Source: an uncultured Spartobacteria bacterium (GTDB taxonomy: Bacteria; Verrucomicrobiota; Verrucomicrobiia; Chthoniobacterales; JAATET01). Taken from it: a stretch of DNA of 64,000 nucleotides. Location of the stretch: positions 47,679 to 111,678 of the forward strand of contig CALGTD010000138.1 in NCBI GenBank assembly GCA_937901895.1, written 5' to 3'. This document shows, in pieces, positions 2,139 through 48,083 of this stretch (the stretch's first letter is position 1; each line of letters opens with the position of its first letter). The notes below the pieces were generated by a model. The model was not told the DNA's origin. It made no database searches and saw only the letters and a program-made list of their open reading frames with translations. A program made the position numbers and the translations under genes.

Positions 2139-3352
2139 CGATTCACCGCGCCCGCATTGTTTTGCCGCTGGCGTCGCCGGCCATTGAGGATGGAGCCGTC
2201 GCAGTCCGGGACAGTCGCATCGAGGCGGTGGGGCGTTTCGCAGACCTCCGCACGGCATTTTCCGGTGCGGACGTCGTTGATCACGGCGATGCGATTCTTC
2301 TCCCCGGGCTGATCAATGCGCACTGTCACCTCGATTTCACCGTGATGCGCGGTGCGATCCTTTCGACAGGCAGCTTCTCCGCGTGGGTCCGGCGGATCAA
2401 CGAGGTCAAGCGCACCCTGAGCGATGACGACTACCTGAAATCCGTTTCCGACGGACTCGAGGAATTGCGAAAATGGGGAACGACCACCGTGCTGAACATC
2501 GAGTCGTTTCCCGAGCTCATGGTGCGCATGCCGCCGCCGATCGTGCGCACATGGTGGTTCTACGAGCTTCTCGATATCCGTTCGCGCATTCACACCGAGG
2601 ATGTCGTGGCTGGGGCGCTGACGTTCTTCGAGCAGCATCCGACGTGGCATGGAGGGTTCGGACTCTCCCCACACGCGCCCTACACGACGTCCATCGAGCT
2701 GTATCAGCTCGCGCGTTTTTGCACGGAGAAATACGGCATGCCGTTCACCACGCATCTCGCGGAGTCCGACGAGGAGATGGAGATGTTCGCGCAGGGGTCT
2801 GGACCGCTCTTTGATTTCCTGAAATCCCTCGGTCGCGACATGCGCGACTGCGGCCGAAAGTCCCCGATCCGTCTTCTGCTGGAAGCCGAGGCGCTGCCCC
2901 GCGGGGCGATTCTCGCCCACATGAACCAGCTCGCACCCGGCGATGAGGAAATGCTGGCGAACAAGTCGGGAATCTTCTCGATCGTGCACTGTCCGAACTG
3001 CCACGAGTATTTCGGGCGCGCGCCGTTCCCGTTCGAGACCCATCGACGGCTTGGTTTTCGTGTGAGTCTCGGCACCGACAGCTGTGCGAGCAATCGCGGG
3101 CTGAACCTGTTCGATGAGATGCGAACCTTCCGGCGAAATTTTCCAGACGTTTCGCCCGCGGAGATTCTCGACATGGCGACGCGCAATCCGGGCGCGGCGA
3201 TCGGTGGCGGCATTGGTGAACTGCGACCCGGATTCCGCGCGGATTTCATTGCAATTCCCTACGCGGGCTCGGTGAACGATGCGATCGAGGCGGTCGTGGA
3301 CAGTCGCACCCCGCCCATGGCCGTTTATCTCAACGGACGTCAGAGCGCGTAG
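2135..3352 (+). CDS. amidohydrolase-family metal-dependent deaminase (MtaD / aminofutalosine deaminase-like)
   Basis: LPGLINAHCHLDF metal-binding motif of the amidohydrolase superfamily and a C-terminal GTDS motif. GTG start at 2135 overlaps the upstream stop. Confidence 0.8.
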   Translation: MTIHRARIVLPLASPAIEDGAVAVRDSRIEAVGRFADLRTAFSGADVVDHGDAILLPGLINAHCHLDFTVMRGAILSTGSFSAWVRRINEVKRTLSDDDYLKSVSDGLEELRKWGTTTVLNIESFPELMVRMPPPIVRTWWFYELLDIRSRIHTEDVVAGALTFFEQHPTWHGGFGLSPHAPYTTSIELYQLARFCTEKYGMPFTTHLAESDEEMEMFAQGSGPLFDFLKSLGRDMRDCGRKSPIRLLLEAEALPRGAILAHMNQLAPGDEEMLANKSGIFSIVHCPNCHEYFGRAPFPFETHRRLGFRVSLGTDSCASNRGLNLFDEMRTFRRNFPDVSPAEILDMATRNPGAAIGGGIGELRPGFRADFIAIPYAGSVNDAIEAVVDSRTPPMAVYLNGRQSA

Positions 3353-5592: not shown

Positions 5593-5658
5593 GGAGCCGG
5601 ACCGCTTCGGCGAACGCTCGCGCTTGCGCGGCGGTCGCGGAAATGGAAACTGGTCGCC

Positions 5659-5880
5659 ATGTCGTGGCTCGACCAGCTTCGCACGCCGGAGATCCGGATC
5701 GGCGAATTTCTGATTCCCTGGGGAATGATGGTAAGCACGCTGGGATTTCTCGCTGCGTGGTTCCTCGTTTCACTCGCCGAGCGCCTTTGCTGGACGCGGC
5801 ATGTCTGGCAGCTCCCTGCATTCTTCATTGCGCTTGCGGTCTTTCTTGGCTGTCTTTTCGGTCTCGTTCTCGCCCCGTGA
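5659..5880 (+). CDS. DUF1656 small membrane protein (AaeX-like)
   Basis: 73-aa protein with two transmembrane helices (MSWLDQLRTPEIRIGEFLIPWGMMV...). Its stop overlaps the GTG start of the downstream HlyD gene, the usual aaeX-aaeA arrangement. Confidence 0.6.
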   Translation: MSWLDQLRTPEIRIGEFLIPWGMMVSTLGFLAAWFLVSLAERLCWTRHVWQLPAFFIALAVFLGCLFGLVLAP

Positions 5881-6743
5881 CAAAATCGATTTCGAAATAT
5901 CTCGTCACGTGCACGGCGATCGCACTCGCCGTGGTCGCGGCGTTGTTGATGTATGACCGCTACACGACGCGGCCATGGACCCGGGATGCACAGGTTCGCG
6001 CAAATGTCGTTGGCATCGCGGCGCGCGTTGCCGGACCGATCATCCAGATTCCAGTGAAGGACAACCAGGCGGTAAAGAAGGGCGACCTCCTTTTCGAGAT
6101 CGACCCCGCCCCGTTCCAGGCGACCCTCGCCAACGCCAAAGCGAAGCTGCAGCAGGCCGAGGCCGCGCGGCTTCAGGCCGAGCAGGATCTGCAGCGGATG
6201 ACCGAGCTCTACAAGACCCAGGTCGTGGACCAGAAGGCGTATCAGGATGCGCAGGACAACTACGCCGCCGCCGAGGCAAACGTCGCGGCCGCCCAGGCCG
6301 ACGTCGTGACCGCCCAGCTGAATCTCGACTACACGAAAGTGGTGGCTCCCGTGGACGGATACCTCACGAATGTGAACACGAGTCCTGGCACTTACGTCTA
6401 CGGCGGTCAGCAGCTCCTCGCACTCGTGGATTCCAGCTCGTTCTGGATCGCAGCGTATTTCAAGGAAACGCAGCTCAAGCATGTCAACGAAGGCGACCGT
6501 GTGCGGCTGACGTTGATGGGCCACCCGGAGCAGCCCTTCGAGGGCGAGGTCAGAAGCATCGGGTGGGGAATTTTCCTCGAGGACGGCTCGACGTCGTCGG
6601 AGGATCTGCTGCCGATCGTGAGCCAGACGATCGATTGGGTGCGTCTGCCGCAGCGCTTTCCCGTGCGGATTCATGTAACCGGGCAACCGCCGATTCCACT
6701 GCGGATCGGGCAGACGGTGTCCGCCGGAATTCAGGGGAAGTAG
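5877..6743 (+). CDS. HlyD-family efflux periplasmic adaptor (AaeA-like)
   Basis: N-terminal transmembrane anchor, a coiled coil (QATLANAKAKLQQAEAARLQAEQDLQRM), then the beta-barrel region typical of HlyD/EmrA membrane fusion proteins. Confidence 0.8.
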   Translation: MTKSISKYLVTCTAIALAVVAALLMYDRYTTRPWTRDAQVRANVVGIAARVAGPIIQIPVKDNQAVKKGDLLFEIDPAPFQATLANAKAKLQQAEAARLQAEQDLQRMTELYKTQVVDQKAYQDAQDNYAAAEANVAAAQADVVTAQLNLDYTKVVAPVDGYLTNVNTSPGTYVYGGQQLLALVDSSSFWIAAYFKETQLKHVNEGDRVRLTLMGHPEQPFEGEVRSIGWGIFLEDGSTSSEDLLPIVSQTIDWVRLPQRFPVRIHVTGQPPIPLRIGQTVSAGIQGK

Positions 6744-33056: not shown

Positions 33057-36000
33057 ATGGAAAACAAACCACCGACAATCGAAGGCGGCACCTACGAGGT
33101 TTTGCGCGCCCGGCTCGACGAGCAGGCGCGTGACCTCCGGGAGCGGTTGGAGCGGCTGAACGACGCGCGGCAGGAGGTCTTCGGGACCATCGAAACCGCG
33201 CTTGTCGCGACGGGGCGGATCTCCACCGAGAACAACTGCGTCCCTCGCGACATGGTCGCGATTCGCAAACGCCGGTCGCTGCTTGGCTACAATGTCCACA
33301 TCGGCCTGCGCTCGGAGGTCCGGCTCGAGGATGTGTTTACCGCCTACCAGCGCGAGGGGGACGAGTTTCGGCCGATCCCGCTCGATTTCCTGAGGGATCC
33401 GGACTTCGAAGCCGACTTCCAGAGTCTTTTCAAATACTACAAGAACACCGTCTTCACGAAGTTCGCGTTCATTGGGCCGCACCTCTTTTTTGTTTTTCAG
33501 GTCGGCCAGCGCGTGACGGACGTGAAGACATTCAAGTGGCTCGTCGGGGAGGACGGCGCGTTCACATACCTCGGAAACCGCAGCGACCACGAGTTTGTCT
33601 TTCCGCCACAGCACGAGTTCGAGTGGAAGCGCACGCATCGCGACCTGCATCGCGATGGGCTTCATCCACATATATCGATCGAGGACCGCGTGTTTGTCGA
33701 AACGATCGGCGGCGACCTCACGATCAAGGTTGAAGATAACACCGACACCGGCGCGGGCATCTACAGCGAGCCAGTTGAGCATGCCGATCAGACGCTCGAC
33801 GATGCGGAGATTTTCTACGCCGTCGTCGGCAATCTCGTTCTGCTGCGCATCCGTCCCTACCAGGAGAAGACCTGGCGGTATTTTGTATTCAACGAAAAGC
33901 TCCAGCACGTCCGGCGAATCGATGCGATCGAGCAGTCCTGTGTGCTGTTGCCGGACGGACACGGCATTATCTTCTCGCGCGGCTACTATTTGCAAAGCGG
34001 AGAGCTGAAACTCTTCGACGCGAACTCGACCGACATGCTTTTCGAGCGGCGGATTGCCGCGCCGAACCGCGAGGATCACCTCTTCTGCTTCTACAATCGC
34101 GAGCGCGGCGACTACATCCTGATGCCCTACAACGTGATCACGCAGCGCGTGGACACGCCCATTCATTGCCAGGGTTTTTCCATCTTCGACAGCGGCGAAC
34201 TTGCGCTCTTCAAGGGGGACTCGGAACCGCAGAAACATCACACCGTCCAGATCTGGCAGACGCCGTTCACCGGCTCGACGTTCCAGACTCCGGCGAAGAC
34301 CGATTCGTTTCTCTTCAAAGTTGGCAACGGCGACATCGTCCGCTGCATGGCTGAGTGCCACGAGATTCTCGGGCTGATTGCGCGCGACGAACCCTATGCC
34401 GACCTCTATGTGGACCTTCGCAAGAGGGCCGGCGACGTGCTCGACTCGTATTTCTGGTTGCGGGAGGAGGACGCCTTTCGGTTGGTCGAACCGCTCGCGG
34501 CGATCCGCGATGCCGCGGATCGAACGATCGAGGAGTTCGACAAGGTGCTCGAGCTGCGTCGCACGGCGGCATCGAAACTGGAAGAAGTCGCAGGAAAGGC
34601 GCGCGCACTGACGGAGGGGATTGTTCCGGGGGAGTTGCAGGATATCGACGCCTACGTGCATGCGCTGGCCGGTCTGCGCACCGTTCGCGGTGAGCTGATT
34701 GCGCTCCGGGACGTCCGATACATCGATCTGGAACGGGTCGATACCGAGGAACAACTTGTCGCCGACTGCAGTGAGGAAGTGTCCAGGCTGTGCGTGGAGT
34801 TTCTTCTCGGTGATGCGGCGCTTTCCCCGTATCGCGAGCGCGTGAAGGCGCTGGAATGCCGGATCGATGAAATCTCCCGCGTCGTTGACGGGCGCGCGCT
34901 CGAAGAGGAGATGACCGTAGCCGGCGCGGACCTGAGCATGCTCATTGAGATCGTCGGCAATCTGCAGATCGACGATGCGACGGCGACGACGCGGATTATT
35001 GACGACATCTCCGCAATCTACGCGGCGCTGAACCAGAACCTCGCCCGCCTGCGCCAACGACTTGCCGGGCTGCGTCAGAGCGAGGGAGCGGCGCAGTTTG
35101 GAGCGCAGCTGAAGCTTGTCACCCAGGCCGTAACAAACCTGCTCGAGCGCTGCGACACACCGGAGAAGTGCGATGAAGCGCTCGGGCGCATGATGGTGCA
35201 GCTCGAGGAGCTGGAGACGCGTTTTGCGGAGGCGGCGGAGTTTCTCGAGCCACTGGCGGAGAAGCGCACGGAGGTCATCTCTGCGTTCGAGGCGAGAAAA
35301 CTCGCGCTTTTGGAGGCGCGCAACCGGAAGGCGACCGCGCTGGCCGGGGTGGCCGACCGCATGCTGAAGGGAATTCAAACCCGGGTGGCGTCCATCGATG
35401 ACGTCGCGGCCATCCACGGATTTTTCGCGTCCGATCTCATGGTCGACAAGCTGCGCGATGTCATTCAGCAGTTGCTCGATCTCGGCGATCCCGTGAAGGC
35501 CGATGATGCGCAGTCGCGATTGAAGACCCTGCGCGAGGAGGCCGTGCGTCAGCTCAAGGATCGAAAGGAGCTGTTCGTTGATGGTTCGGACGTCGTTGCG
35601 TTTGGTCCGCACCGGTTCAATGTGAACACGCAGCCGACCGATCTGACCGTGCTGCATCGGGACGACGGCCTGTTTCTGCATCTTTCCGGCACGCGCTTTT
35701 TCGAGCGGATCGAGGATCCCGAACTTGATGAGCTTCGTCCCGTTTGGGACCTCGAGGTTGTTTCCGAATCGCACGACGTGTATCGCGCGGAGTGGCTCGC
35801 CTGCAAGCTGCTCAGAAGCCTTGAAGATGGCGGTCGGCTGGCGGAAGCCGCCCGGTGGAGTTCCGCGCAATGGCTCGATGAGGTGCGGAATTTCATGTCC
35901 CCGCGATACGCCGAAGGTTATGTGCGGGGAATTCATGATGCGGACGCGGTCCGAATTCTGGAAGCGCTGGCGCCGATGCACCTGGCGGCCGGAACGGTGC

Positions 36001-38090
36001 GGCATCCTCCGTCCGCGCGGGTGCTCGGAATCATGGCCTGGGATCATTTCGACAATGCGGAGGAACGGGCGCTGCTGGAGGGACAACTGGCGAGCCATGG
36101 CGCGATGCGAGGTGTCTTCGAAACCGAGGCCCGCCCGGCGCCGTATCTCGCAAGGCTCGAGGGCGTCTGCCGGCGGGCAATCGAAAGCGGAGCGCCGTTC
36201 GACGAATCACTGGTTTCCCCCGCGGCGGAATATTTGTTCGACGCGTTGAGTTCGGGAGAGGGATTCGCGTTCAGCCAGGACGCTTTCGAGGTGTTCCGCG
36301 CGTTCGAAGATGATGTGCGGGAGCGGGGAGCCTTCGACCGGTTTGTGGAGCTTCGAAAGGCGGTGGAGACCAATCCGTGGCGCCACTTCGAGATGCTTCG
36401 CGATTGGATGAGCGGGTTTCTGCGCCGCAGCGACAGGGACGGGACGTTTTGTGACGAGGCAGTCTTCCTGCTGAAGCGCGGCGCGCATCACCAGCATCGC
36501 GTGGTCGATGTTGAGCTGCGTGTGGATCTCACCGGCATGCTCGGCCAGCATCCTCGCCTCCGGAACGGCGCCTATGTGCTGGATTACCTGGATTTCACGG
36601 ACCGTCTCGAGCGTCACGAGCGTGTCACGGCACCCGCCTTCGAGCGGTTTCAGGCGATCAAACGCCGTCTCTCCGAAGTGGGAGCCAGTCGCCTGCGGGT
36701 CGAGGAGCTTCGTCCGAAGGTGCTGACATCGTTTGTCCGGAACCGCCTTGTGGATGAGGTCTTTTTGCCGCTCGTCGGCGCAAACCTCGCGAAGCAGATG
36801 GGCACCGCGGGCGCGAATACGCGCACGGATCGCATGGGTCTGCTGCTGTTGATTTCACCTCCCGGCTACGGCAAGACGACGCTTATGGAATATGTCGCGA
36901 GCCGGCTCGGGCTCGTGTTCATGAAGATCAATGGTCCGTCGCTCGGCGCCGGCGTCACCTCGCTGGATCCCTCGCATGCTCCGAATGCTGCGGCGCGCGA
37001 GGAGATCGAGAAACTGAATCTCGCATTCGAGATGGGCGACAATGTGATGATCTATGTGGACGACATCCAGCATTGTCATCCCGAGTTCCTGCAGAAGTTC
37101 ATTTCGCTCTGCGACGGCCAGCGGCGGATCGAGGGTGTCTATCGCGGACAGGCGCGCACCTACGACCTGCGCGGGCGGAAGGTCGCCGTGGTCATGGCGG
37201 GAAATCCCTACACGGAAAGCGGCGAGAAGTTCCGGATTCCCGACATGCTCGCGAACCGGGCCGATACCTACAATCTCGGCGACATCGCTGTGGGCGCGCA
37301 CTTCGAAGCGTTCCGCCTGAGCTACCTTGAGAATGCGCTCACGTCGAACGCGGTGCTGAACCCTCTCGCCGCGCGCGGGCGCAAGGACATCCTTGGCGTC
37401 ATTCGAATTGCGGAGACCGGTGGCCGCGATGGCGTCGAGCTTGAAGGCAATTACACCGCTCGGGAACTCGAAGACATGGTTTCCGTCGTGAAGAAGCTCG
37501 GCCGCATCCGCGACGTGATCCTGAAGGTGAATGCGGAATACATCCGCTCCGCCGCGCAGGCCGATGCCTACCGCACCGAGCCGCCGTTCCGCCTGCAGGG
37601 ATCGTATCGCAACATGAACCGCATGGCCGAGAAGGTCGTGCCGGTGATGAACGACGAAGAACTCGAAGCGCTCGTGATGGACCACTACCGCAACGAGGCC
37701 CAGACGCTCACGACGGGTGCCGAGGCGAACCTGCTCAAGCTGCGGGAACTTCTCGAAAAACTCACTCCGGAGGAGGCGGCGCGATGGGAGGAAATTCGGA
37801 AGACCTTTCGTCGCAACCTGCTGGTGGCGGGGACGGAAGGGGATGACCCGATTGCGCAGGTTGTCCGGCAGCTCGTGGCGTTTAATGTCGGGCTGGAAGG
37901 GATCAAGGACGTTATCGGGAGCATGGCCGCGAAGCCGGAACGCCCGCCCGCGGGATCCGATCCGGGGATCGATCTCACGAAGGTCGCGATCTCGCGCGAG
38001 ACCTTGCAGAAGATCTGGGAGCTCATCGAGCAGGACAAGATTCGGGCGAACAAGGGCGACACGTTGCAGGTGAAGATTCCGGAGGAGTAG
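33057..38090 (+). CDS. 1677-aa multidomain protein with a single C-terminal MoxR/AAA_5-type ATPase module; N-terminal ~1250 aa of unknown function
   Basis: Uninterrupted 5-kb ORF. Walker A LLLISPPGYGKTT (~36858-36884), Walker B VMIYVDDIQH (~37050-37080) and VVMAGNP (sensor-1-like). A beta-rich N-terminal ~450 aa and a coiled-coil-rich middle region have no recognisable family. Confidence 0.8.
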   Translation: MENKPPTIEGGTYEVLRARLDEQARDLRERLERLNDARQEVFGTIETALVATGRISTENNCVPRDMVAIRKRRSLLGYNVHIGLRSEVRLEDVFTAYQREGDEFRPIPLDFLRDPDFEADFQSLFKYYKNTVFTKFAFIGPHLFFVFQVGQRVTDVKTFKWLVGEDGAFTYLGNRSDHEFVFPPQHEFEWKRTHRDLHRDGLHPHISIEDRVFVETIGGDLTIKVEDNTDTGAGIYSEPVEHADQTLDDAEIFYAVVGNLVLLRIRPYQEKTWRYFVFNEKLQHVRRIDAIEQSCVLLPDGHGIIFSRGYYLQSGELKLFDANSTDMLFERRIAAPNREDHLFCFYNRERGDYILMPYNVITQRVDTPIHCQGFSIFDSGELALFKGDSEPQKHHTVQIWQTPFTGSTFQTPAKTDSFLFKVGNGDIVRCMAECHEILGLIARDEPYADLYVDLRKRAGDVLDSYFWLREEDAFRLVEPLAAIRDAADRTIEEFDKVLELRRTAASKLEEVAGKARALTEGIVPGELQDIDAYVHALAGLRTVRGELIALRDVRYIDLERVDTEEQLVADCSEEVSRLCVEFLLGDAALSPYRERVKALECRIDEISRVVDGRALEEEMTVAGADLSMLIEIVGNLQIDDATATTRIIDDISAIYAALNQNLARLRQRLAGLRQSEGAAQFGAQLKLVTQAVTNLLERCDTPEKCDEALGRMMVQLEELETRFAEAAEFLEPLAEKRTEVISAFEARKLALLEARNRKATALAGVADRMLKGIQTRVASIDDVAAIHGFFASDLMVDKLRDVIQQLLDLGDPVKADDAQSRLKTLREEAVRQLKDRKELFVDGSDVVAFGPHRFNVNTQPTDLTVLHRDDGLFLHLSGTRFFERIEDPELDELRPVWDLEVVSESHDVYRAEWLACKLLRSLEDGGRLAEAARWSSAQWLDEVRNFMSPRYAEGYVRGIHDADAVRILEALAPMHLAAGTVRHPPSARVLGIMAWDHFDNAEERALLEGQLASHGAMRGVFETEARPAPYLARLEGVCRRAIESGAPFDESLVSPAAEYLFDALSSGEGFAFSQDAFEVFRAFEDDVRERGAFDRFVELRKAVETNPWRHFEMLRDWMSGFLRRSDRDGTFCDEAVFLLKRGAHHQHRVVDVELRVDLTGMLGQHPRLRNGAYVLDYLDFTDRLERHERVTAPAFERFQAIKRRLSEVGASRLRVEELRPKVLTSFVRNRLVDEVFLPLVGANLAKQMGTAGANTRTDRMGLLLLISPPGYGKTTLMEYVASRLGLVFMKINGPSLGAGVTSLDPSHAPNAAAREEIEKLNLAFEMGDNVMIYVDDIQHCHPEFLQKFISLCDGQRRIEGVYRGQARTYDLRGRKVAVVMAGNPYTESGEKFRIPDMLANRADTYNLGDIAVGAHFEAFRLSYLENALTSNAVLNPLAARGRKDILGVIRIAETGGRDGVELEGNYTARELEDMVSVVKKLGRIRDVILKVNAEYIRSAAQADAYRTEPPFRLQGSYRNMNRMAEKVVPVMNDEELEALVMDHYRNEAQTLTTGAEANLLKLRELLEKLTPEEAARWEEIRKTFRRNLLVAGTEGDDPIAQVVRQLVAFNVGLEGIKDVIGSMAAKPERPPAGSDPGIDLTKVAISRETLQKIWELIEQDKIRANKGDTLQVKIPEE

Positions 38091-38633: not shown

Positions 38634-38836
38634 TCCCGCAGGGCGCCCCGGCGGGGCGCGACTCCCGGACGTCGGAGCTACAGGCCTGGAGCTAAGGTCG
38701 TGTCCGGCCATTTCTGCGCGGCATTCGGCGGGCACATTCCGGAGCCATGATCGTTGCGTCATCGCACCGGTGAAGGACGCGCAATGAATGGCGGAGGGCG
38801 TTGTCAAAGGGTGCGGACTTGATTAAACGCAACCGC

Positions 38837-40330
38837 ATGCGCCGCCCTTTTTTCCTGCTGCACCTTTCCGCTCTGCTCCTCGCCGGGGCGGCACCGTCTT
38901 CTGCGCAAACCTTTGTGCCTGCTCCGATGCCGGCTTTGTTGAGGAAGGCGGGCCTTCCTCCCACGGTGCGCTTCGGTTACGTCACTGTCCCCGCGAACCG
39001 GGCGATGAATAATGGACAGAAGATCCAGATCGCGGTGGCGATCCTTCCCGCGAGGGAATCGCCGAAGAAGCCGGACCCGATCTTCTTTCTGCAGGGCGGA
39101 CCGGGAGGGGCCGCCACCTTGGTGGCTGGGGATCCCGTGTATTCTCTGCTCTCCAGGGATCGCGATGTCGTCTTCATTGACCAGCGGGGGTGCGGGTTCT
39201 CGCGACCGTTTCTGGGTGCGGCTTCCAATGATGTGACCGTTCCATTCCGTCCGATCGCTCGTGCCCGGGCCCGCTTCCGCGAGCGTGGAATTCCTCTTGC
39301 GAGCTTCAATACGCCGGAGAATGCAGCGGACGTCGAGGCGGTCCGGAAGGCGCTCGGCTATGGTCAAATCAACCTGTTGGGCAGCTCCTACGGGACGGTG
39401 CTCGCACAGCAGGTGATGAGTGATTTTCCACACAGACTCCGGTCGGTCGTGCTGAGCGGGGTGGTGCCGCTGCGTGGCTGGGACCTTGTGCCCGGCAATC
39501 AGCTTGTGCAGATGGATGGCCTGCGCGGCCTGTTTCGCGACGTGCGACGCACGCGGCGCGATCGGCGTTCGTTTCCGGCCCTCTCCTCGCGGTATAATGA
39601 GGTGATTGCGCGGCTTCTGGAGCGGCCGGTCATCCTCCGTCATCGCAGACAGAAGATCCGGCTCGATGCGTTTTCGTTTCAAAGTGCGCTGATCGTGCTC
39701 CTGCAGACACCGCAAACGGTCCGCTATGTTCCGTTGCTCATCGAGGCCGCGTGGGAAGGACGCTACGAGCAGGTGGGGCCGTATCTTTATCCGCCGATGC
39801 GGCCGGGCGACCGCGGTCTCGCATTCGGGATGTTTCTTTCCGTCGTGTCTCACGATTTCCGGGCGCCGGGAACCCATCGCCATGCGCTGGCACAAGTCGA
39901 TCGACTGCCCAATGGTCCCTTCAAGACGATGACCCGTTACACCGTCGACCGCCTCACCAAGGCGCTCGACCGCTGGCCGGTGGCCTACGATCCGGGCGCG
40001 ATCCGGCCGCCGTTTGGCAGTGCGGTGCCAACTTTGCTCGTGCAGGGAGACATGGATGCGCAGACACCGCCGAAGGGCGGAACGGACGCCGCGCGGCTGC
40101 TTGGTTTGAAGAATGCGTTTGTGATGTCGTTCCCCCGCAGTGGCCACGCGACCGGTCTTTCCGAAGGGCCGGCGTGCGACGCCATTCGTCAGTTTTTTGA
40201 CACGCCGAATCGGCGACCGGTCGTCAATCTGGCCCCGCTTCGGAAACGGCACTTCTACCTCACGAAATTCCCGCAGCGCTCCCGCACGAAGGCGATGCGC
40301 CCGGTGGTTCCCGTGGCCTCGTTGCCTTGA
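38837..40330 (+). CDS. secreted alpha/beta hydrolase (S33/TAP-like peptidase family), copy 1
   Basis: Signal peptide, GGPGG, and nucleophile elbow GSSYGT. About 65% identical to the downstream paralog. Confidence 0.75.
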   Translation: MRRPFFLLHLSALLLAGAAPSSAQTFVPAPMPALLRKAGLPPTVRFGYVTVPANRAMNNGQKIQIAVAILPARESPKKPDPIFFLQGGPGGAATLVAGDPVYSLLSRDRDVVFIDQRGCGFSRPFLGAASNDVTVPFRPIARARARFRERGIPLASFNTPENAADVEAVRKALGYGQINLLGSSYGTVLAQQVMSDFPHRLRSVVLSGVVPLRGWDLVPGNQLVQMDGLRGLFRDVRRTRRDRRSFPALSSRYNEVIARLLERPVILRHRRQKIRLDAFSFQSALIVLLQTPQTVRYVPLLIEAAWEGRYEQVGPYLYPPMRPGDRGLAFGMFLSVVSHDFRAPGTHRHALAQVDRLPNGPFKTMTRYTVDRLTKALDRWPVAYDPGAIRPPFGSAVPTLLVQGDMDAQTPPKGGTDAARLLGLKNAFVMSFPRSGHATGLSEGPACDAIRQFFDTPNRRPVVNLAPLRKRHFYLTKFPQRSRTKAMRPVVPVASLP

Positions 40331-40448: not shown

Positions 40449-41948
40449 ATGCTCCGACACCTTCTTTCGCTGCGTGTCTTCGCGGCATTTCTCGTCGGGG
40501 CGGGGCCGGCTCTTGCGCAGACCTTCGTGCCTGCTCCGCTTCCGGCGTTGTTGAGAAGGGTGGGTCTTCCAGATACGGTGCTCTTCGGCTACGTGGCGGT
40601 TCCCGAGAACAGGGGATCGGACAATGGACGGATGATTCAGGTTGCGGTCACCATTCTGCCTGCGACTCAATCGTCGAAGCGACCGGATCCCATTTTCTTT
40701 CTCGAAGGCGGTCCGGGAGGGACGGCGAGCTACCTGCCGCTCTCGCCGACGTTTTCGATCCTGGCGCAGGATCGGGATATCGTGTTCGTGGATCAGCGCG
40801 GATGCGGATTTTCACGGCCGTTTCTTGGCGCGAATTCCAACGACGTCACCGTGCCCTATTCCCCGATCAAGAAGGCGCTCGCGCGGTTTCGCTCCGCCGG
40901 CATTCCGCTGGAGTGCTTCAACACGGCGGAGAATGCCGCCGATATCGAGGCCGTCCGTGTGGCGCTGGGTTACGGCGCGATCAATCTCCTCGGGCACTCG
41001 TATGGCTCGGTGCTCGCGCAGCAGATGATGAGCGACTTTCCGGCGAACCTGCGTTCGGTGGTGCTGAGCGGGGTGGTGCCGTTGCGCGGATGGGATTTCG
41101 TGCCGGGGAACCAGCTCGTGCAGCGCGATGCGTTGAGGGCACTGTTTCGCGATGTGCGTCGCACTCGAAGGGCGCGCGCGACGTTTCCGAATCTCGCGCG
41201 ACATTACGAAGAGGTGGTGGCGAGGCTGCTCGAAAAGCCGGTGATGGTGCCGAGATTCGGACGCCTCGTGCGACTGGATGCCTTTTCCTTCCAGATGGCC
41301 CTGCTTGGGCTCATGCAGGCGCCGAACACCATTTGCGTGGTGCCGCTTTTCATTCAGGCCACGTGGGAGGGCCGCTACGAGGAGATCGGTCGCTTTATTC
41401 CGGACGACCTCTCTCCGGTGAAAAACCGGAGTTTTGCCTTCGGCATGTATCTTTCGGTGATGTCGCGCGATTTTTTCCCGCCCGGGTCTGCGGCAAAAGC
41501 GCGCGCCGCCGCTGATGCGCTGCCGGACAGTGCGTTCAAGGAGATGACACGCGTCACCGTTTCCCGACTCGCCCGGGCGATCAATCGCTGGCCGGTGCGC
41601 TACGATCCGACCGGACTGAAGCCGCCGTTCGGAAGCGCCATCCCGACGCTTCTGCTCCAGGGGGACATGGATGCGCAGACGCCGTCTCGTGGCGGCACGG
41701 ATGCCGCGCGTCTGCTGGGCCTGCGGAACGCTTTTGTCATCAGTGTGCCGCGTAGCGGTCACAGCACCGGTGCCACCCAGGGACCCGCCTTCAACGCGGT
41801 GCGTCGGTTTTTTGCCGAACCGCACCGCAGGCCCGTGGTGAGCTTTGCCTCGTTGCGGCGGCCGAATTTTTATCGCACCCGATTTCCAGTCTCATCCCGG
41901 ATGCGGACGCCCGCGGTGGCGATTCCGCAGCTCCCGACGGGGTTGTAG
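40449..41948 (+). CDS. secreted alpha/beta hydrolase (S33/TAP-like peptidase family), copy 2
   Basis: Signal peptide, GGPGG, and nucleophile elbow GHSYGS. Collinear with copy 1 over its whole length. Confidence 0.8.
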   Translation: MLRHLLSLRVFAAFLVGAGPALAQTFVPAPLPALLRRVGLPDTVLFGYVAVPENRGSDNGRMIQVAVTILPATQSSKRPDPIFFLEGGPGGTASYLPLSPTFSILAQDRDIVFVDQRGCGFSRPFLGANSNDVTVPYSPIKKALARFRSAGIPLECFNTAENAADIEAVRVALGYGAINLLGHSYGSVLAQQMMSDFPANLRSVVLSGVVPLRGWDFVPGNQLVQRDALRALFRDVRRTRRARATFPNLARHYEEVVARLLEKPVMVPRFGRLVRLDAFSFQMALLGLMQAPNTICVVPLFIQATWEGRYEEIGRFIPDDLSPVKNRSFAFGMYLSVMSRDFFPPGSAAKARAAADALPDSAFKEMTRVTVSRLARAINRWPVRYDPTGLKPPFGSAIPTLLLQGDMDAQTPSRGGTDAARLLGLRNAFVISVPRSGHSTGATQGPAFNAVRRFFAEPHRRPVVSFASLRRPNFYRTRFPVSSRMRTPAVAIPQLPTGL

Positions 41949-42045
41949 GTGACAACAACTTGGTCTGATGGGGGGGACGGGGGAGTCCTCGCCGCTACAT
42001 CCTTTCGCAGTGACACGCCGCCTTTCGAAGGCTACGAACCGAGGC

Positions 42046-42324
42046 ATGGCCACCACGGCGAAAGTGCTGCTTTGGGTTTTGGGGATGTTTCTTATTCCGC
42101 CGTTCGTCGGATTTCTCACGGGAGCGGCAAGTAATTGGGCAAACGCCGGTGCATTCGTCGCCTATGGCTTCGTGATGATTGGAATGGCGGTGGGGGCGGC
42201 TGTGAACGTGGCGCGAAGTCCGGCAGCGCGGATTGGCCTGTTTTTTGTTTTTGCGGTCGGAATGCTCTTCCTGCAGTGCGCCGTCTTTTTTGTCGGTTGC
42301 ACGATTCTCGTGTCGGTCGCGTGA
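42046..42324 (+). CDS. small integral membrane protein
   Basis: 92 aa with three predicted transmembrane helices. Its stop overlaps the GTG start of the radical SAM gene (GTGA). Confidence 0.4.
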   Translation: MATTAKVLLWVLGMFLIPPFVGFLTGAASNWANAGAFVAYGFVMIGMAVGAAVNVARSPAARIGLFFVFAVGMLFLQCAVFFVGCTILVSVA

Positions 42325-43697
42325 GCGGAATCGTAATCCCGAATCCTCTGGGCTCGCTGCTCAAGCGCACGCGCAGCCGGTGTGTGGTATGTCATCAGGA
42401 TTGCCCCGCCGAGGTGCGGCGAAAGGCGGAGGATGGCGTCGAGAAGGTCTTTCTCACGCGCTCTTGCCCGATGCATGGCTCGCAGACGACCTGCATCGCG
42501 TCGGACGCGAGGTTCTACTGGCTCGCGCAAGGCAATCCGGACAATGCGTGCTGTGGCCCGGGGGCAGCCTGCTGCGCCTCGACGGGCGAGCCGGCCGGGT
42601 CGCTGGGCAAAAACGCATTGGGGCGGGCTGACGGTCCTTTCGAGAAGCTCTCCACCTGCCTCGCGCTGATCGAGATTGTCGATACCTGCAATCTTGCATG
42701 TCCTGTGTGCTATGCGGATTCGCCGCGCGATCATGCGACCATTGGTGCGAAACCCGTCGACGAACTGCAGGCACGGATCCAGGGCGTGATCGATCGCAAG
42801 GGCGAGATCGACATCCTGCAATTCTCCGGCGGCGAGCCGACGATCCATCCGCAATTCTTCGAGCTGCTCGAGTGGGCACAGTCGCATGCGGGCATTCGGT
42901 ATGTGCTTGTGAATACAAACGGCGTGAAGCTTGCCACGGATGACGAGTTTCTTGCCGGCATGGCGGCGGCGGCTCGGCGACGGGGATTGCAGGTATATCT
43001 TCAATTCGATGGCACTCTCGAGGCGGGGCAGCGGGAGTTGCGGGGAGGGGATCTGCGGGCGATGCGGGAGCGGGCGATTGTGCGTTGTGGCGAGATCGGT
43101 CTGCCGGTCACGCTGGCCATGACCGTGACGCAGGAAAATCTCTCGAACGTGTGGGACACGGCGGAGTTCGGCCTGCGTTTTCCGCAGGTGCGCGGTGTGA
43201 GCTATCAGCCGTTTTTCACGAGTGGGCGACGTGTCGCGCTGGATCCTGGCTACAGACCGCTCACGACGGCCGATGTGCTGCTGGCGCTCATTGCGAACGG
43301 TCCACTAAAGGCGGACGATTTCACGCCGTTGCCATGTGGTGATCCGAACTGCGCGACCATCGGCTACCTGCTGCGCGTGGCGGAGGAGGTGCGGCCCATC
43401 AGCGAGTTTCTCGATTTCCGTGAGCTGCAGGGTTTCCTTCGCGACAAGGTGCGTTACTCGCTGGACGACCTTGTCCAGTGCGGTTGCGAGAACGAGCCGC
43501 TCGGCGAGTTGCTCAAGCAATTCGAACTCGATGAGTCGAATACGTTCCGGCTTTTCGTGAAGCCGTTCATGGATGCGTTCACCTGGGACGAGGATCGCAT
43601 CGACCGCTGTTGCACGCATGTGATCCGCGAGGATGGCCGACTCGACTCGTTTTGCCGCTACTACTCCGGATTCCCGGATACGTGTTGCGCTCCGTGA
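42321..43697 (+). CDS. radical SAM enzyme with an N-terminal Cys/His knuckle and a Cys-rich C-terminal extension
   Basis: CNLACPVCY (CX3CX2C) and FSGGEPT motifs. N-terminal CVVCHQDC...SCPMHG. C-terminal PCGDPNC, VQCGCENE and RCCTH...[15 protein letters not shown]. Confidence 0.8.
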   Translation: MSGIVIPNPLGSLLKRTRSRCVVCHQDCPAEVRRKAEDGVEKVFLTRSCPMHGSQTTCIASDARFYWLAQGNPDNACCGPGAACCASTGEPAGSLGKNALGRADGPFEKLSTCLALIEIVDTCNLACPVCYADSPRDHATIGAKPVDELQARIQGVIDRKGEIDILQFSGGEPTIHPQFFELLEWAQSHAGIRYVLVNTNGVKLATDDEFLAGMAAAARRRGLQVYLQFDGTLEAGQRELRGGDLRAMRERAIVRCGEIGLPVTLAMTVTQENLSNVWDTAEFGLRFPQVRGVSYQPFFTSGRRVALDPGYRPLTTADVLLALIANGPLKADDFTPLPCGDPNCATIGYLLRVAEEVRPISEFLDFRELQGFLRDKVRYSLDDLVQCGCENEPLGELLKQFELDESNTFRLFVKPFMDAFTWDEDRIDRCCTHVIREDGRLDSFCRYYSGFPDTCCAP

Positions 43698-44381
43698 ACC
43701 TGCCGCCGCTCTATGCGCTGACGATGCTCGGCGCGATTACCCTCGCCGGCATTTTCTGGTGGCGGCTTGCGCGGCGCGATGGGCGATTGTTTTTTCTCTA
43801 CCTGATCGCGCTCTTCGGCGCGTTGGCCGGTGCAAAACTGGGCTGGTTCATCGCGGAGGGGTGGCGCGAAATCGGCCATCCGCAATTTCTGATCGCCCTC
43901 GCAACCGGCAAGACGATTGTCGGCGGACTGATCGGAGGTTACCTGGCGGTGGAATGGGGCAAGCGGGCGCTGGGATTCTCCGGGGTTACCGGAGACTGGT
44001 TCGCCATGGTCGTTCCGCTGGGCATTGCACTTGGCCGTGTGGGCTGCCTCGTGCAGGGCTGCTGCGGTGGGATGCCATGGAACGGCTGGTGTGCCGTCGT
44101 GGACGCGCAGGGCATGGCGCGTTGGCCGTCCGCCGAAATGGAACTGGCGTTCAACCTCCTCGCGGCGTTGACATTTTTCCTGATGCGCAGGGGCAGGCTG
44201 CTACGGGGTCAGCATTTTCACATATACCTGATGGCATACGGCCTTTTCCGCTTCTTCCACGAATTCGTTCGCGATACGCAGCGAGAGATTGGAGTCTTCT
44301 CAGGCTATCAACTGCTCGCGCTCCTTTGCTTTGCCGTTGGCGTGGTTGGATTCGTGAGACGCGCGAATGGACAGCGCGGAA

Positions 44382-44398
<17 letters not shown>
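43694..44398 (+). CDS. prolipoprotein diacylglyceryl transferase (Lgt)-like membrane protein
   Basis: Seven predicted transmembrane helices and the Lgt-like signature region [20 protein letters not shown] start overlaps the radical SAM stop (GTGA). Confidence 0.6.

Positions 44399-48083
<3,685 letters not shown>

What the first reader, a model, noticed from the sequence alone, without database searches (positions are those of the whole stretch)
42046..44398. Translationally coupled operon: small membrane protein, Cys-rich radical SAM enzyme, Lgt-like transferase
Three genes are joined by GTGA start/stop overlaps (42321-42324 and 43694-43697), which implies tight co-expression and a functional unit. 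The radical SAM enzyme has, beyond the CX3CX2C cluster, an N-terminal rubredoxin/zinc-knuckle-like CVVC...CPMH and several C-terminal Cys pairs (auxiliary clusters?). This resembles large lipid- or peptide-modifying radical SAM enzymes more than housekeeping ones. Its partner is a paralog-like prolipoprotein diacylglyceryl transferase, a membrane enzyme that moves diacylglyceryl groups. Pairing a radical SAM enzyme with a lipid transferase and a small membrane protein suggests an uncharacterised membrane-lipid or lipoprotein modification pathway, possibly C-C or ether coupling of lipid tails. This is speculative.
Basis: partly seen in the sequence, partly recalled or inferred. Interest (0 to 1): 0.6.

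Follow-up and report, generated by a model that had tools for sequence, protein, structure and literature searches.

The report
Lgt paralogue, Tes-like enzyme, Cys-tailed miniproteins
This three-gene operon is one copy of a widespread but undescribed membrane system in which a divergent copy of the lipoprotein-lipidating enzyme Lgt is tied to a relative of the archaeal tetraether-lipid synthase and to tiny membrane proteins that end in a lipoprotein-like cysteine motif, which are probably its substrates.

Summary
Three + strand genes are present: a 92-aa membrane protein (42046-42324), a 458-aa radical SAM enzyme (42321-43697) and a 234-aa Lgt-like protein (43694-44398). They are joined by GTGA start/stop overlaps.

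- **Radical SAM enzyme.** It is a homologue of the tetraether synthase GDGT-MAS/Tes. It keeps the rubredoxin-type CX2C…CX2H site, the radical SAM cluster and the C-terminal cluster cysteines. It falls below the curated cut-offs for Tes and TrsS.
- **Lgt-like protein.** It has the Lgt fold and the catalytic Arg pair. H103, N146 and E151, essential in E. coli Lgt, are replaced, giving the signature GRxGCxxxGCCxG. It is a paralogue, not housekeeping Lgt.
- **Linkage.** It runs both ways: 66 of 80 genome loci and 63 of 65 informative metagenome loci. It extends to other phyla, and in Planctomycetes the two enzymes are one fused polypeptide.
- **New point.** The neighbouring small proteins are not homologous to one another. 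Nearly all end in the same cassette: positive flank, 22-residue helix, F-x-G-C, 3-18-residue tail. This is a lipoprotein signal peptide placed at the C-terminus.

Best reading: these miniproteins are lipidated on that Cys by the Lgt paralogue, with the radical SAM enzyme remodelling the lipid. The chemistry is inferred, not shown. I found no paper or curated family describing the system.

The parts
42046..42324 (+). Small inner-membrane protein (92 aa, three predicted TM helices, N-in/C-out by the positive-inside rule). It is the putative substrate or client of the system.
   Evidence: ORF and independent gene call. Protein-level homologue in L001 (47% identity, E 2e-16). It belongs to the set of non-homologous neighbours that share only the C-terminal cassette.
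42232..42321 (+). C-terminal cassette of the small protein. The last TM helix begins after the positive loop NVARSPAAR and ends in F82-V83-G84-C85 (42289-42300), followed by the 7-residue tail TILVSVA.
   Evidence: Cassette logo: F(-3) in 68/110, G(-1) in 100/110, Cys invariant; tail 3-18 aa. The uncharged stretch before the Cys has median 22 residues (IQR 22-24) and is preceded by a net +1.75 flank. Enrichment 111/914 near vs 6/6706 elsewhere, replicated as 55/312 vs 4/2430.
42321..43697 (+). Radical SAM enzyme of the HMPTM/Tes/GDGT-MAS family (458 aa, GTG start overlapping the stop of the small gene).
   Evidence: PF23545 + PF04055. NCBIfam TrsS 198 bits (cut-off 490) and Tes 135 bits (cut-off 450). 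PDB 7TOL E 4.7e-30 by sequence. The model matches 7TOL with E 1.3e-19 and TM 0.59, while the next hit is 5e-8.
42381..42476 (+). Rubredoxin-type metal site C21-X2-C24-X24-C49-X2-H52.
   Evidence: Same CX2C...CX2H pattern as the GDGT-MAS site C9X2C12X20C33X2H36 (PMC9433317) and aligned with it. Invariant in all Lgt-linked homologues from several phyla.
42687..42710 (+). Radical SAM cluster motif C123-X3-C127-X2-C130.
43608..43655 (+). C-terminal auxiliary-cluster cysteines C430, C431 and C445 (RCCTH...FCRYY).
   Evidence: Aligned with RCCIH...FCTY of 7TOL (domain 2). Invariant in the verrucomicrobial clade.
43694..44398 (+). Cys3-type paralogue of prolipoprotein diacylglyceryl transferase (234 aa; alternative GTG start at 43682). 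It has seven TM helices.
   Evidence: PF01790 83 bits. TIGR00544 40.6 bits vs cut-off 118.9. AF2 model pLDDT 90, with E. coli Lgt 5AZB as the only significant PDB fold match.
44033..44071 (+). Modified Lgt signature G114-R-V-G-C118-L-V-Q-G-C123-C124-G-G126, aligned with E. coli G142RLGNFINGELWG154.
   Evidence: Alignment with E. coli Lgt. R143 is kept; N146 and E151 are replaced by Cys. The signature occurs in 114 of 115 top representatives that cover the region and in 78 of 80 metagenome copies.

Best explanation
**What it is.** The operon encodes a dedicated membrane modification system with three parts.
1. One or more small inner-membrane proteins. Their only shared feature is a C-terminal cassette built like a lipoprotein (type II) signal peptide: positive cytoplasmic flank, about 22-residue helix, F-x-G-C at the outer end, then a 3-18-residue tail.
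2. A divergent Lgt paralogue. It keeps the diacylglyceryl-transfer centre (equivalents of Y26, R143, Y235, R239, E243, R246). The phosphatidylglycerol-selection residues (H103, N146, E151) are replaced, giving a Cys3 motif.
3. A cytoplasmic radical SAM enzyme of the tetraether-synthase (Tes/GDGT-MAS) family.

**Proposed mechanism.** The Lgt paralogue transfers a glycerolipid group to the thiol of the cassette Cys at the outer leaflet. The radical SAM enzyme is held at the cytoplasmic C-terminal side of the Lgt paralogue; in Planctomycetes the two are one polypeptide. It carries out radical chemistry on the hydrocarbon tail of that lipid, either on the donor or on the attached group, by analogy with the tail-carbon activation done by GDGT-MAS. 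The product would be a specially lipidated miniprotein. If the general signal peptidase II then cuts before the Cys, the product would be a short lipopeptide.

**Shown.** Gene structure, family membership at superfamily level, residue conservation and replacement, two-way co-conservation, fusion, and the cassette with its enrichment.

**Inferred.** That the Cys is lipidated, which lipid is used, what the radical SAM enzyme does, the order of steps, and any cleavage.
For: - **Forward linkage.** The Lgt-like gene lies downstream on the same strand in 66 of 80 species genomes that carry the radical SAM gene. Most of the rest are truncated contigs.
- **Reverse linkage.** 63 of the 65 metagenome contigs found through the Lgt-like protein that have either a detectable radical SAM gene or at least 1.5 kb upstream carry the radical SAM gene upstream. 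One of the two exceptions (L090, syntenic with this window next to metH) has lost the signature Arg and Cys residues.
- **Other phyla.** The Cys3 Lgt type sits next to a Zn_ribbon_HMPTM radical SAM gene in 7 of 7 contexts sampled from more distant representatives, including a Fimbriimonadales genome; two of these are Lgt-radical SAM fusions.
- **Fusion.** More than 90 listed protein clusters, mostly Planctomycetes, carry LGT + Zn_ribbon_HMPTM + Radical_SAM in one ORF. The fusion in L167 is in a single frame.
- **Cassette.** 111/914 neighbouring same-strand ORFs carry it vs 6/6706 other ORFs, and 71/80 loci have one by a strict rule, about 78/80 with variants. This is replicated at 55/312 vs 4/2430. 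The carriers fall into unrelated sequence clusters with 1-4 per locus. The geometry is that of a lipobox signal peptide.
- **Cassette elsewhere.** Cys-tail small proteins recur in the ICMT/DUF4395-type operons and in a planctomycete fusion locus.
- **Lgt paralogue.** The Lgt fold is present and the catalytic centre is retained, while the PG-recognition residues are replaced (PMC4728403).
- **Radical SAM enzyme.** It retains the rubredoxin site, the radical SAM cluster and the C-terminal auxiliary Cys of the lipid-tail-coupling enzyme GDGT-MAS.
Against: - No biochemical or mass-spectrometric evidence exists for any step.
- The radical SAM enzyme works in the cytoplasm, while the predicted Cys lies at the outer face. 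Direct action on the Cys is therefore unlikely unless it happens before membrane insertion.
- Five genome loci with room downstream lack an adjacent Lgt-like gene but still have cassette proteins. The link between the radical SAM enzyme and the miniproteins may therefore be the tighter one.
- In several other-phylum loci (L166, L168) no clear Cys-tail protein was found. Neighbours there include FA_hydroxylase, methyltransferase and PEMT/ICMT genes, which would also fit a pure lipid pathway.
- The replaced residues H103 and E151 are essential in E. coli Lgt, so the paralogue may not be a transferase of the same kind.
- The radical SAM model has low confidence outside the core (pLDDT 64).
Confidence: 0.45

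Rival explanations
1. A pure membrane-lipid pathway. The Tes-like enzyme couples or otherwise modifies acyl tails. The Lgt paralogue moves the diacylglyceryl unit to a non-protein acceptor. The small proteins are scaffolds, regulators or anchors rather than substrates.
For: - Homology to GDGT-MAS/Tes, which binds and couples lipid tails.
- Lipid-type neighbours in other phyla: FA_hydroxylase, UbiE-like methyltransferase, PEMT/ICMT.
- The enzyme pair is highly conserved (about 60-65% identity across the phylum), which fits an invariant small-molecule substrate.
- Bacterial Tes homologues have been proposed as makers of membrane-spanning lipids (PMC8941075).
Against: - It does not explain why unrelated small proteins next to the enzymes all end in the same helix-FxGC-tail cassette with signal-peptide geometry.
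- The only known acceptor for the Lgt fold is a lipobox Cys (PMC4728403).
- The enzyme is below the Tes cut-off (135 vs 450 bits).
Confidence: 0.2
2. A RiPP-like lipopeptide pathway. The radical SAM enzyme modifies the peptide itself, at the Cys, the hydrophobic helix or the short tail, in the cytoplasm before the tail-anchored C-terminus inserts. The Lgt paralogue then lipidates the Cys, and signal peptidase II releases a short modified lipopeptide.
For: - Several hypervariable small genes lie beside a radical SAM gene, as in RiPP clusters.
- 10-residue tails show their own pattern, ending M-[DN]-F-[HRK].
- 39 of 111 carriers have an N-terminal CxxC...CxxC zinc ribbon that could serve as a recognition (leader-like) domain.
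- The cassette orientation is the one that signal peptidase II would cut.
Against: - No SPASM or RRE domain was detected.
- The closest structural relative acts on lipids.
- The enzyme is far more conserved than the tails it would have to recognise.
- No protease or exporter is conserved in the neighbourhood.
Confidence: 0.2
3. The small proteins are subunits or redox/metal partners. Their conserved Cys forms a disulfide or a shared metal site with the Cys3 motif of the Lgt paralogue, and nothing is transferred to them.
For: Three invariant Cys replace polar active-site residues at the periplasm-facing end of TM4 of the Lgt paralogue. The partner Cys is predicted at the same membrane level. 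A rhodanese-domain membrane protein follows the fused enzyme in Planctomycetes, which hints at sulfur chemistry.
Against: Obligate subunits are normally conserved in sequence and single-copy. Here they are unrelated families, 1-4 per locus, sharing only a terminal cassette.
Confidence: 0.1
4. Ordinary housekeeping lgt that happens to lie next to an unrelated radical SAM gene.
For: Public annotation calls these proteins 'prolipoprotein diacylglyceryl transferase', and Pfam LGT passes its threshold.
Against: - Below the Lgt equivalog cut-off (40.6 vs 118.9 bits).
- No phmmer hit to any solved chain, E. coli Lgt included, and no tblastn hit of E. coli Lgt at this gene. By contrast, a canonical verrucomicrobial Lgt is 39% identical to E. 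coli Lgt with E 4e-54 (PMC10260701).
- The equivalents of the essential residues H103 and E151 are lost.
- Linkage to the radical SAM gene is near-obligate and includes fusions.
- The copy in L090 has Trp at the essential Arg position.
Confidence: 0.02

Closest known systems
Bacterial lipoprotein pathway (Lgt, then LspA and Lnt) acting on N-terminal lipobox signal peptides
   Same: - Lgt 7-TM fold and catalytic centre (equivalents of Y26, R143, Y235, R239, E243, R246).
- The acceptor-like element has the same build and orientation as a type II signal peptide: positive flank, hydrophobic helix, [F/L]-x-G-C.
   Different: - The cassette sits at the C-terminus of small multi-TM or zinc-ribbon proteins, so the 'mature' part is only 3-18 residues.
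- Phe dominates position -3.
- The helix is about 22 residues long.
- The enzyme lacks the equivalents of H103, N146 and E151 and has a shortened head domain.
- It is obligately paired with, or fused to, a radical SAM enzyme.
Tetraether synthase Tes / GDGT-MAS (MJ0619, PDB 7TOL), and bacterial Tes homologues proposed for brGDGT synthesis
   Same: - Same superfamily and domain order.
- Rubredoxin-type CX2C...CX2H site, radical SAM cluster and C-terminal auxiliary-cluster Cys.
- Best sequence and fold match in the PDB.
   Different: - About 22% identity, and below the NCBIfam Tes cut-off.
- The labile Met439 position is Lys.
- Extra conserved Cys are present: C113 and C339 in all Lgt-linked homologues, and C344, C387 and C389 in most of them.
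- The N-terminal auxiliary-cluster motif is not conserved in spacing.
- It is linked to an Lgt paralogue and Cys-tailed miniproteins.
- I found no report of a membrane-spanning lipid in Verrucomicrobiota in the papers read.
TrsS, radical SAM (seleno)protein (NCBIfam NF045646)
   Same: Closest curated family. The alignment is full-length (residues 16-448 to profile positions 2-430).
   Different: 198 bits against a cut-off of 490. The function of TrsS is itself unknown, and the paper describing it was not available here.
MYXO-CTERM / myxosortase and related C-terminal sorting tags (PGF-CTERM/archaeosortase, eukaryotic CAAX processing)
   Same: An invariant Cys beside a C-terminal TM helix is proposed to be lipidated, possibly by Lgt, as part of C-terminal processing. 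An ICMT-like methyltransferase in the related operons of other phyla echoes the CAAX pathway.
   Different: - The order is opposite: MYXO-CTERM is Cys motif, TM, then cytoplasmic Arg tail on secreted proteins.
- Here the order is positive flank, TM, Cys, then a short outer tail, on tiny non-secreted proteins.
- No CPBP, sortase or rhombosortase partner is present.
- Carriers lie next to the enzymes rather than being dozens scattered through the genome.
Radical SAM RiPP clusters
   Same: Several hypervariable small precursor-like genes lie next to a radical SAM gene and share only a short conserved terminal motif.
   Different: There is no SPASM or RRE domain. The enzyme is of the lipid-acting Tes type. 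The 'precursors' are integral membrane proteins.

Membership tests
Canonical Lgt (phosphatidylglycerol:prolipoprotein diacylglyceryl transferase, TIGR00544) | Pfam LGT domain and seven-TM Lgt fold | tested here: met
   PF01790 83.1 bits vs cut-off 24.9. AF2 model pLDDT 90 with seven helices, and the only significant PDB match is 5AZB (E 1.1e-5, TM 0.61).
Canonical Lgt (phosphatidylglycerol:prolipoprotein diacylglyceryl transferase, TIGR00544) | Score above the curated equivalog cut-off | tested here: not met
   TIGR00544 40.6 vs 118.9 bits; NF000778 72.8 vs 334 bits. No phmmer hit to any solved chain, E. coli Lgt included, at E <= 0.01.
Canonical Lgt (phosphatidylglycerol:prolipoprotein diacylglyceryl transferase, TIGR00544) | Catalytic centre: Y26, R143, Y235, R239, E243, R246 | tested here: met
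   All are aligned and at least 90% conserved across 63 Lgt-like sequences. Their roles are taken from PMC4728403.
Canonical Lgt (phosphatidylglycerol:prolipoprotein diacylglyceryl transferase, TIGR00544) | Essential H103 (HGGL motif) and signature-motif residues N146 and E151 (PG recognition) | tested here: not met
   The H103 position is Val here and not conserved across the family. N146 and E151 are both Cys, giving GRxGCxxxGCCxG. All H103 substitutions tested and E151A/Q inactivate E. coli Lgt.
Canonical Lgt (phosphatidylglycerol:prolipoprotein diacylglyceryl transferase, TIGR00544) | Sole, essential lgt of the genome | not tested
Indirect evidence against: the L090 copy has Trp at the R143 position, and Methylacidiphilum, in the same phylum, has a canonical Lgt 39% identical to that of E. 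coli.
Tes / GDGT-MAS tetraether synthase | Radical SAM CX3CX2C core plus N-terminal rubredoxin-type CX2C...CX2H site | tested here: met
   C123/C127/C130 and C21/C24/C49/H52 are present, aligned to 7TOL and invariant.
Tes / GDGT-MAS tetraether synthase | C-terminal auxiliary [4Fe-4S] cluster ligands | tested here: met
   RCC...FC (C430, C431, C445) align with RCC...FC of 7TOL. The labile Met439 position is Lys414, but the M439A variant is still active.
Tes / GDGT-MAS tetraether synthase | N-terminal auxiliary cluster (C73X3C77X2C80 + His) | tested here: inconclusive
   A Cys-rich stretch (C77, C78, C84, C85) lies in the same region, but the spacing differs. It is not conserved in Lgt-linked homologues of other phyla, and the model is unreliable there.
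Tes / GDGT-MAS tetraether synthase | Score above the curated Tes cut-off | tested here: not met
   NF045702 134.6 bits vs cut-off 450.
Tes / GDGT-MAS tetraether synthase | Tail-to-tail C-C coupling of saturated lipid chains | not testable with these tools
   This needs anaerobic enzymology or lipidomics.
TrsS (NF045646) | Score above the curated cut-off | tested here: not met
   198.4 bits vs cut-off 490. Radical SAM proteins of the related ICMT/DUF4395-type operons reach 349-374 bits, also below the cut-off.
Radical SAM/SPASM RiPP maturases | SPASM (or twitch) auxiliary domain and/or an RRE leader-binding domain | tested here: not met
   Only Radical_SAM, Zn_ribbon_HMPTM and Fer4_12 were found. 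SPASM-family NCBIfam models match only the core, residues 113-299.
MYXO-CTERM-type C-terminal sorting tags | Order Cys motif, TM helix, basic cytoplasmic tail, on secreted proteins, with a CPBP/sortase-type partner | tested here: not met
   The order here is positive flank, 22-residue helix, Cys, then a near-neutral short tail. No protease family is conserved nearby. The definition is taken from PMC11980579.
NCBIfam NF058595 'lipo-invert putative C-terminal anchoring domain' | Score above cut-off (37 bits) with a consistent alignment register | tested here: not met
   9 of 111 small proteins hit, best E 0.019. Members scanned individually scored 9-11 bits, with differing registers. No paper on this family was found.

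The most novel reading that the evidence does not exclude
PVC-group bacteria and several other phyla have an unrecognised post-translational lipidation pathway. A Cys3-type Lgt paralogue, working as a complex or fusion with a tetraether-synthase-like radical SAM enzyme, installs a radically remodelled glycerolipid on the cysteine of a C-terminal, signal-peptide-like cassette of miniproteins. The remodelling could be tail-cross-linked, macrocyclic or membrane-spanning. The pathway may release short lipopeptides. This would be the first protein-directed role for the Tes family and the first specialised Lgt.
Probability: 0.3. Interest if true: 0.85.

Novelty: new variant of a known kind. Interest (0 to 1): 0.72.

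Why it matters
- **Lgt is assumed to be one enzyme with one job.** It is also an antibiotic target. A large paralogue family with an altered active site, now annotated everywhere as ordinary Lgt, means a second chemistry on this fold has gone unnoticed. It also means genome annotations of 'lgt' are partly wrong.
- **Bacterial Tes homologues are used to infer who makes brGDGT membrane-spanning lipids, which serve as palaeoclimate proxies.** A large clade of these homologues is wired to an Lgt paralogue and to Cys-tailed miniproteins. Such hits should therefore not be read as tetraether synthases without further evidence.
- **The system is directly testable.** It has a defined substrate motif, two enzymes, a natural fusion, and cultured hosts (Chthoniobacter flavus Ellin428, Haloferula chungangensis, Pedosphaera parvula).

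Tried and rejected
- **Housekeeping lgt.** Rejected on cut-offs, lost essential residues and obligate linkage.
- **Membership of Tes or TrsS.** Rejected on curated cut-offs.
- **NCBIfam 'lipo-invert' tail domain.** I followed this as a lead because of its name. Hits are 9-11 bits with inconsistent registers, and no paper exists.
- **Other conserved neighbours.** Clustering all ORFs of 80 loci gave only lineage-specific synteny (ArgG, RuvB, hydrolases) and one unannotated 4-TM protein in 22 loci. No protease, exporter or LspA/Lnt was found.
- **Promoter/terminator scan of 41700-44700.** Nothing above the shuffle expectation.
- **A second Lgt-family gene in the window or held loci.** None found.
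- **Radical SAM structure model.** Only moderately confident (pLDDT 64). I used it only for the fold match.
- **The TrsS paper.** Haft and Tolstoy 2025, which describes TrsS, is not held.
- **The second FLGC-tail ORF in the window (5551-5880).** It lies between FUSC-like and HlyD-like efflux genes and is best read as a chance match in an AaeX-like small protein.


Full report
**1. The observation**

The window carries three + strand ORFs:
- 42046-42324 (92 aa)
- 42321-43697 (458 aa, GTG start)
- 43694-44398 (234 aa, GTG start)

Bases 42321-42324 and 43694-43697 both read GTGA, so each downstream start overlaps the upstream stop. The same sequence occurs on a 213-kb metagenome contig (ENA ERZ795039 NODE_131). 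There an independent gene caller found the same 92-aa and 458-aa genes. It placed the third start 12 nt further up (GTG 43682), still overlapping the radical SAM gene. Closest relatives are Chthoniobacterales, phylum Verrucomicrobiota. Neighbouring genes are not part of the unit, because they are not conserved in related loci. They comprise two alpha/beta-hydrolase paralogues upstream and convergent metH downstream.

**2. The radical SAM enzyme**

*Family placement*
- Pfam finds Zn_ribbon_HMPTM plus Radical_SAM.
- The best curated families are TrsS (198 bits, cut-off 490) and tetraether synthase Tes (135 bits, cut-off 450). It belongs to that superfamily but to neither family.
- The only strong solved relative is GDGT-MAS (MJ0619, 7TOL): E 4.7e-30 by sequence.
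- A moderate-confidence model matches 7TOL with E 1.3e-19 and TM 0.59, against 5e-8 for the next hit.

*Cofactor sites*

GDGT-MAS has a rubredoxin-type iron site C9X2C12X20C33X2H36, three [4Fe-4S] clusters and hydrophobic lipid tunnels. It couples terminal carbons of saturated lipid tails through a carbon-sulfur intermediate on the C-terminal cluster (PMC9433317; PMC13459092).
- The window protein has C21X2C24X24C49X2H52.
- It has the CX3CX2C motif at C123-C130.
- It has RCC...FC (C430, C431, C445) aligned with the same residues of 7TOL.

Differences from GDGT-MAS:
- The labile Met439 position is an invariant Lys.
- The N-terminal auxiliary-cluster motif differs in spacing.
- There are extra conserved Cys: C113, C339/C344 in LPCGDPNC, and C387/C389. 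GDGT-MAS lacks those in its aligned stretch, reading PVPSVAPIS opposite LPCGDPNC.

**3. The Lgt-like protein**

It passes Pfam LGT. It fails the Lgt equivalog model (40.6 vs 118.9 bits). It finds no solved chain, E. coli Lgt included, by phmmer. E. coli Lgt does not find it by tblastn in the window. A high-confidence model (pLDDT 90) has seven TM helices, and its only significant PDB match is E. coli Lgt 5AZB.

I aligned it with E. coli Lgt and 63 family members:
- **Kept:** equivalents of Y26, D129, G142, R143, G145, G154, E202, Y235, R239, E243 and R246.
- **Replaced:** N146 and E151 are both Cys. The H103 position is Val here and not conserved in the family.
- **Other changes:** the periplasmic head domain is shortened.
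- **Resulting signature:** GRxGCxxxGCCxG.

In E. coli, R143 and R239 form the transfer centre. E151 and the signature motif select phosphatidylglycerol. H103 and E151 are individually essential (PMC4728403). The paralogue thus keeps the transfer machinery but has a rebuilt donor/acceptor recognition site. A canonical verrucomicrobial Lgt is much closer to E. coli Lgt (39% identity, E 4e-54; PMC10260701).

**4. Linkage of the two enzymes**

| Test | Result |
|---|---|
| Species-genome scan with the radical SAM family | 484 positive genomes, nearly all Verrucomicrobiota, including C. flavus Ellin428 and Haloferula chungangensis |
| The 80 loci kept from that scan | 66 have the Lgt-like gene downstream on the same strand; most others are truncated; five with room lack it |
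| Reverse test: 80 metagenome contigs found through the Lgt-like protein | 63 carry the radical SAM gene upstream, 15 are too short, 2 with room lack it |
| Exception L090, next to metH as in this window | Lost the signature (GWLGVICEGVRHG, Trp at the essential Arg position), as expected for decay after loss of the partner |
| Exhaustive profile search with the Lgt-like protein | 607 representatives at E <= 1e-10; 114 of the 115 top representatives covering the region carry the Cys3 signature, down to 31% identity |
| Contexts sampled from more distant representatives | Fimbriimonadales: radical SAM and Lgt-like genes overlap by 4 nt. L168: the pair plus FA_hydroxylase and a methyltransferase. 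Three operons: radical SAM, PEMT/ICMT, DUF4395, an ArsP-type permease in L171 only, Lgt-like. L167 and L170: Lgt-like followed directly by the radical SAM domain |
| Fusion | More than 90 listed protein clusters, mostly Planctomycetes, are single polypeptides with LGT + Zn_ribbon_HMPTM + Radical_SAM; L167 is in one frame |

The Lgt head domain between TM4 and TM5 is periplasmic and there are seven TM helices. The C-terminus is therefore cytoplasmic. In the fusion this places the radical SAM domain at the cytoplasmic face, directly under the Lgt paralogue.

**5. The small proteins: the new finding**

Only one locus has a sequence homologue of the window's 92-aa protein. Clustering all ORFs showed several unrelated families of small genes. 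They lie just upstream of the radical SAM gene or between it and the Lgt-like gene.

*The shared ending.* They all end with a hydrophobic helix, then F-x-G-C, then a short tail. The window protein ends ...FFVGC-TILVSVA.

*Enrichment.* I used a fixed rule: a hydrophobic 15-mer, then [LFIVMAC]x[GAS]C, within the last 22 residues.

| Data set | Neighbouring same-strand ORFs | All other ORFs of the same loci |
|---|---|---|
| 80 genome loci | 111/914 | 6/6706 |
| 80 metagenome loci (second data set) | 55/312 | 4/2430 |

By this rule 71 of 80 genome loci have at least one carrier. Most 'failures' carry variants such as LGC, GGC, STC, YAGC, WVGC or GTC, so about 78 of 80 have one.

*Geometry.*
- Phe is at -3 in 68/110, Gly at -1 in 100/110, and the Cys is invariant.
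- Tails are 3-18 residues (mode 10). Ten-residue tails often end M-[DN]-F-[HRK].
- The uncharged stretch before the Cys is strikingly constant (median 22, IQR 22-24).
- It is preceded by a net positive flank of +1.75.
- 39 of 111 carriers have an N-terminal CxxC...CxxC zinc ribbon, which must be cytoplasmic.

This is the geometry and orientation of a lipoprotein signal peptide: positive n-region, h-region, lipobox, Cys at the outer face. Here it sits at the C-terminus of tiny membrane proteins.

*Other phyla.* Similar Cys-tail proteins flank the enzymes elsewhere:
- LLACGTC-FLSGSFF, FAFGAC-MLVFSGGW and FFASSC-RLFS in the three ICMT/DUF4395 operons
- FFVIC-VAGAGQ on a zinc-ribbon protein beside a planctomycete fusion

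They were not found in every locus (L166, L168).

No Pfam or NCBIfam family covers these proteins.

**6. Interpretation**

Hypervariable, multi-copy neighbours that share only a terminal cassette are the signature of substrates, not subunits. The only known acceptor of the Lgt fold is a lipobox Cys at the outer end of a signal-peptide helix, and the cassette reproduces exactly that.

The most economical reading has two steps:
- The Cys3-type Lgt paralogue S-lipidates the cassette Cys.
- The Tes-like enzyme, physically coupled on the cytoplasmic side, acts on the hydrocarbon tail of the lipid held or transferred by its partner.

The high conservation of both enzymes, set against the variability of the miniproteins, fits an invariant lipid or cassette substrate. 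None of the following is established:
- whether the radical SAM step precedes transfer (making a special donor) or follows it
- whether the chemistry is C-C coupling as in GDGT-MAS
- whether signal peptidase II then releases a short lipopeptide
- what role the three Cys play (a thiol-activating metal site, as in prenyltransferases, is one possibility)

Rivals remain open: a pure lipid pathway, a RiPP-like peptide modification before membrane insertion, and a Cys-Cys or metal partnership. I put the main model at about 0.45.

**7. Comparison with what is known**

- Papers on bacterial Tes homologues treat them only as candidate brGDGT synthases. The two I read for this (PMC8941075, PMC11868695) do not single out this clade.
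- Full-text searches for Lgt paralogues, a C-terminal or inverted lipobox, and 'lipo-invert' found nothing that describes this system.
- The closest concept is MYXO-CTERM/myxosortase, where a Cys beside a C-terminal TM helix is thought to be lipidated, perhaps by Lgt. There the order of elements is reversed, the carriers are secreted proteins, and the partner is a CPBP protease (PMC11980579).
- Public annotation names the paralogue 'prolipoprotein diacylglyceryl transferase', which is misleading.

**8. Verdict**

The likely centre of the system, a C-terminal lipobox-like cassette on the small proteins, was missed, and lipid-tail coupling is unproven.

I rate this a new variant of known kinds of system (Lgt-type lipidation combined with a Tes-type radical SAM enzyme). 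It is widespread in PVC bacteria and beyond, it is not described in the libraries I could search, and it can be tested directly. Interest 0.72.

Noticed in passing
L167 2684-4699; L173 4001-6145; L174 4001-6127 (and P0398-P0504): In Planctomycetes the Lgt paralogue and the Tes-like radical SAM enzyme are a single 650-750-aa polypeptide, with the Lgt part N-terminal. In L167 and L173 this gene is followed by a roughly 450-aa membrane protein with a rhodanese domain. It is preceded by a conserved ~217-aa membrane protein and zinc-ribbon small proteins.
   Followed up: partly
L169 489-4094; L171 1625-5937; L172 331-4069: A second operon type occurs in other phyla: radical SAM (349-374 bits on TrsS, below cut-off), PEMT/ICMT-like methyltransferase, DUF4395, an ArsP-type permease in L171 only, Cys3-type Lgt, then a Cys-tail small protein. 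In L169 and L172 the DUF4395 proteins themselves end in Cys-rich tails. The ICMT-like gene recalls CAAX-type carboxyl methylation of a lipidated C-terminal Cys.
   Followed up: partly
L090 4501-5229: A relative of this window's organism keeps the Lgt-like gene next to metH but has lost the radical SAM and small genes. Its signature reads GWLGVICEGVRHG, with the essential Arg and all three Cys gone, so this appears to be a decaying copy.
   Followed up: yes
window 5551-5880 (+): This is the only other ORF in the window with a helix-FLGC-tail ending. It lies between a FUSC-like gene (3340-5592, - strand) and an HlyD-like gene (5442-6743, + strand) and resembles the small AaeX-type efflux partner. 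It is probably a chance match.
   Followed up: partly
window 38801-40330 and about 40450-41948 (+): Two tandem paralogous alpha/beta-hydrolases (Abhydrolase_1 plus Abhydrolase_4, with signal-peptide-like N-termini) lie directly upstream of the operon. They are not conserved next to it in other genomes.
   Followed up: no
window 33057-38090 (+): A 1677-aa protein with DUF3686, DUF7902 and a weak AAA ATPase domain. Its function is unknown.
   Followed up: no
window 44382-48083 (-): The B12-dependent methionine synthase gene metH converges on the Lgt-like gene, and their 3' ends overlap by 17 nt. No terminator-like site above chance was found between them.
   Followed up: partly
L005 4740-5252, L017 5419-5925, L022 5399-5782, L025 2116-2532 and 18 more loci: A conserved ~130-aa four-TM protein ending in ...YPR, with no Pfam or NCBIfam match, sits among the small genes upstream of the radical SAM gene in 22 of 80 loci. 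It has no Cys tail, and its role is unknown.
   Followed up: no
L016, L020, L040, L044, L047, L048, L052, L076, L079: Contigs with typical verrucomicrobial versions of the locus are labelled in their records as Saccharimonadales, Sulfotelmatobacter, Acidoferrum, Bifidobacteriaceae, Bifidobacterium, Binatia or Oligoflexia MAGs. This probably reflects binning or labelling errors rather than true hosts.
   Followed up: no
L165/L166 2784-4418: In the Fimbriimonadales locus a 544-aa protein with a weak Peptidase_S41 (tail-specific protease) match lies directly upstream of the radical SAM gene. It is a possible processing enzyme for C-terminal tails. It was seen in only this one context.
   Followed up: no
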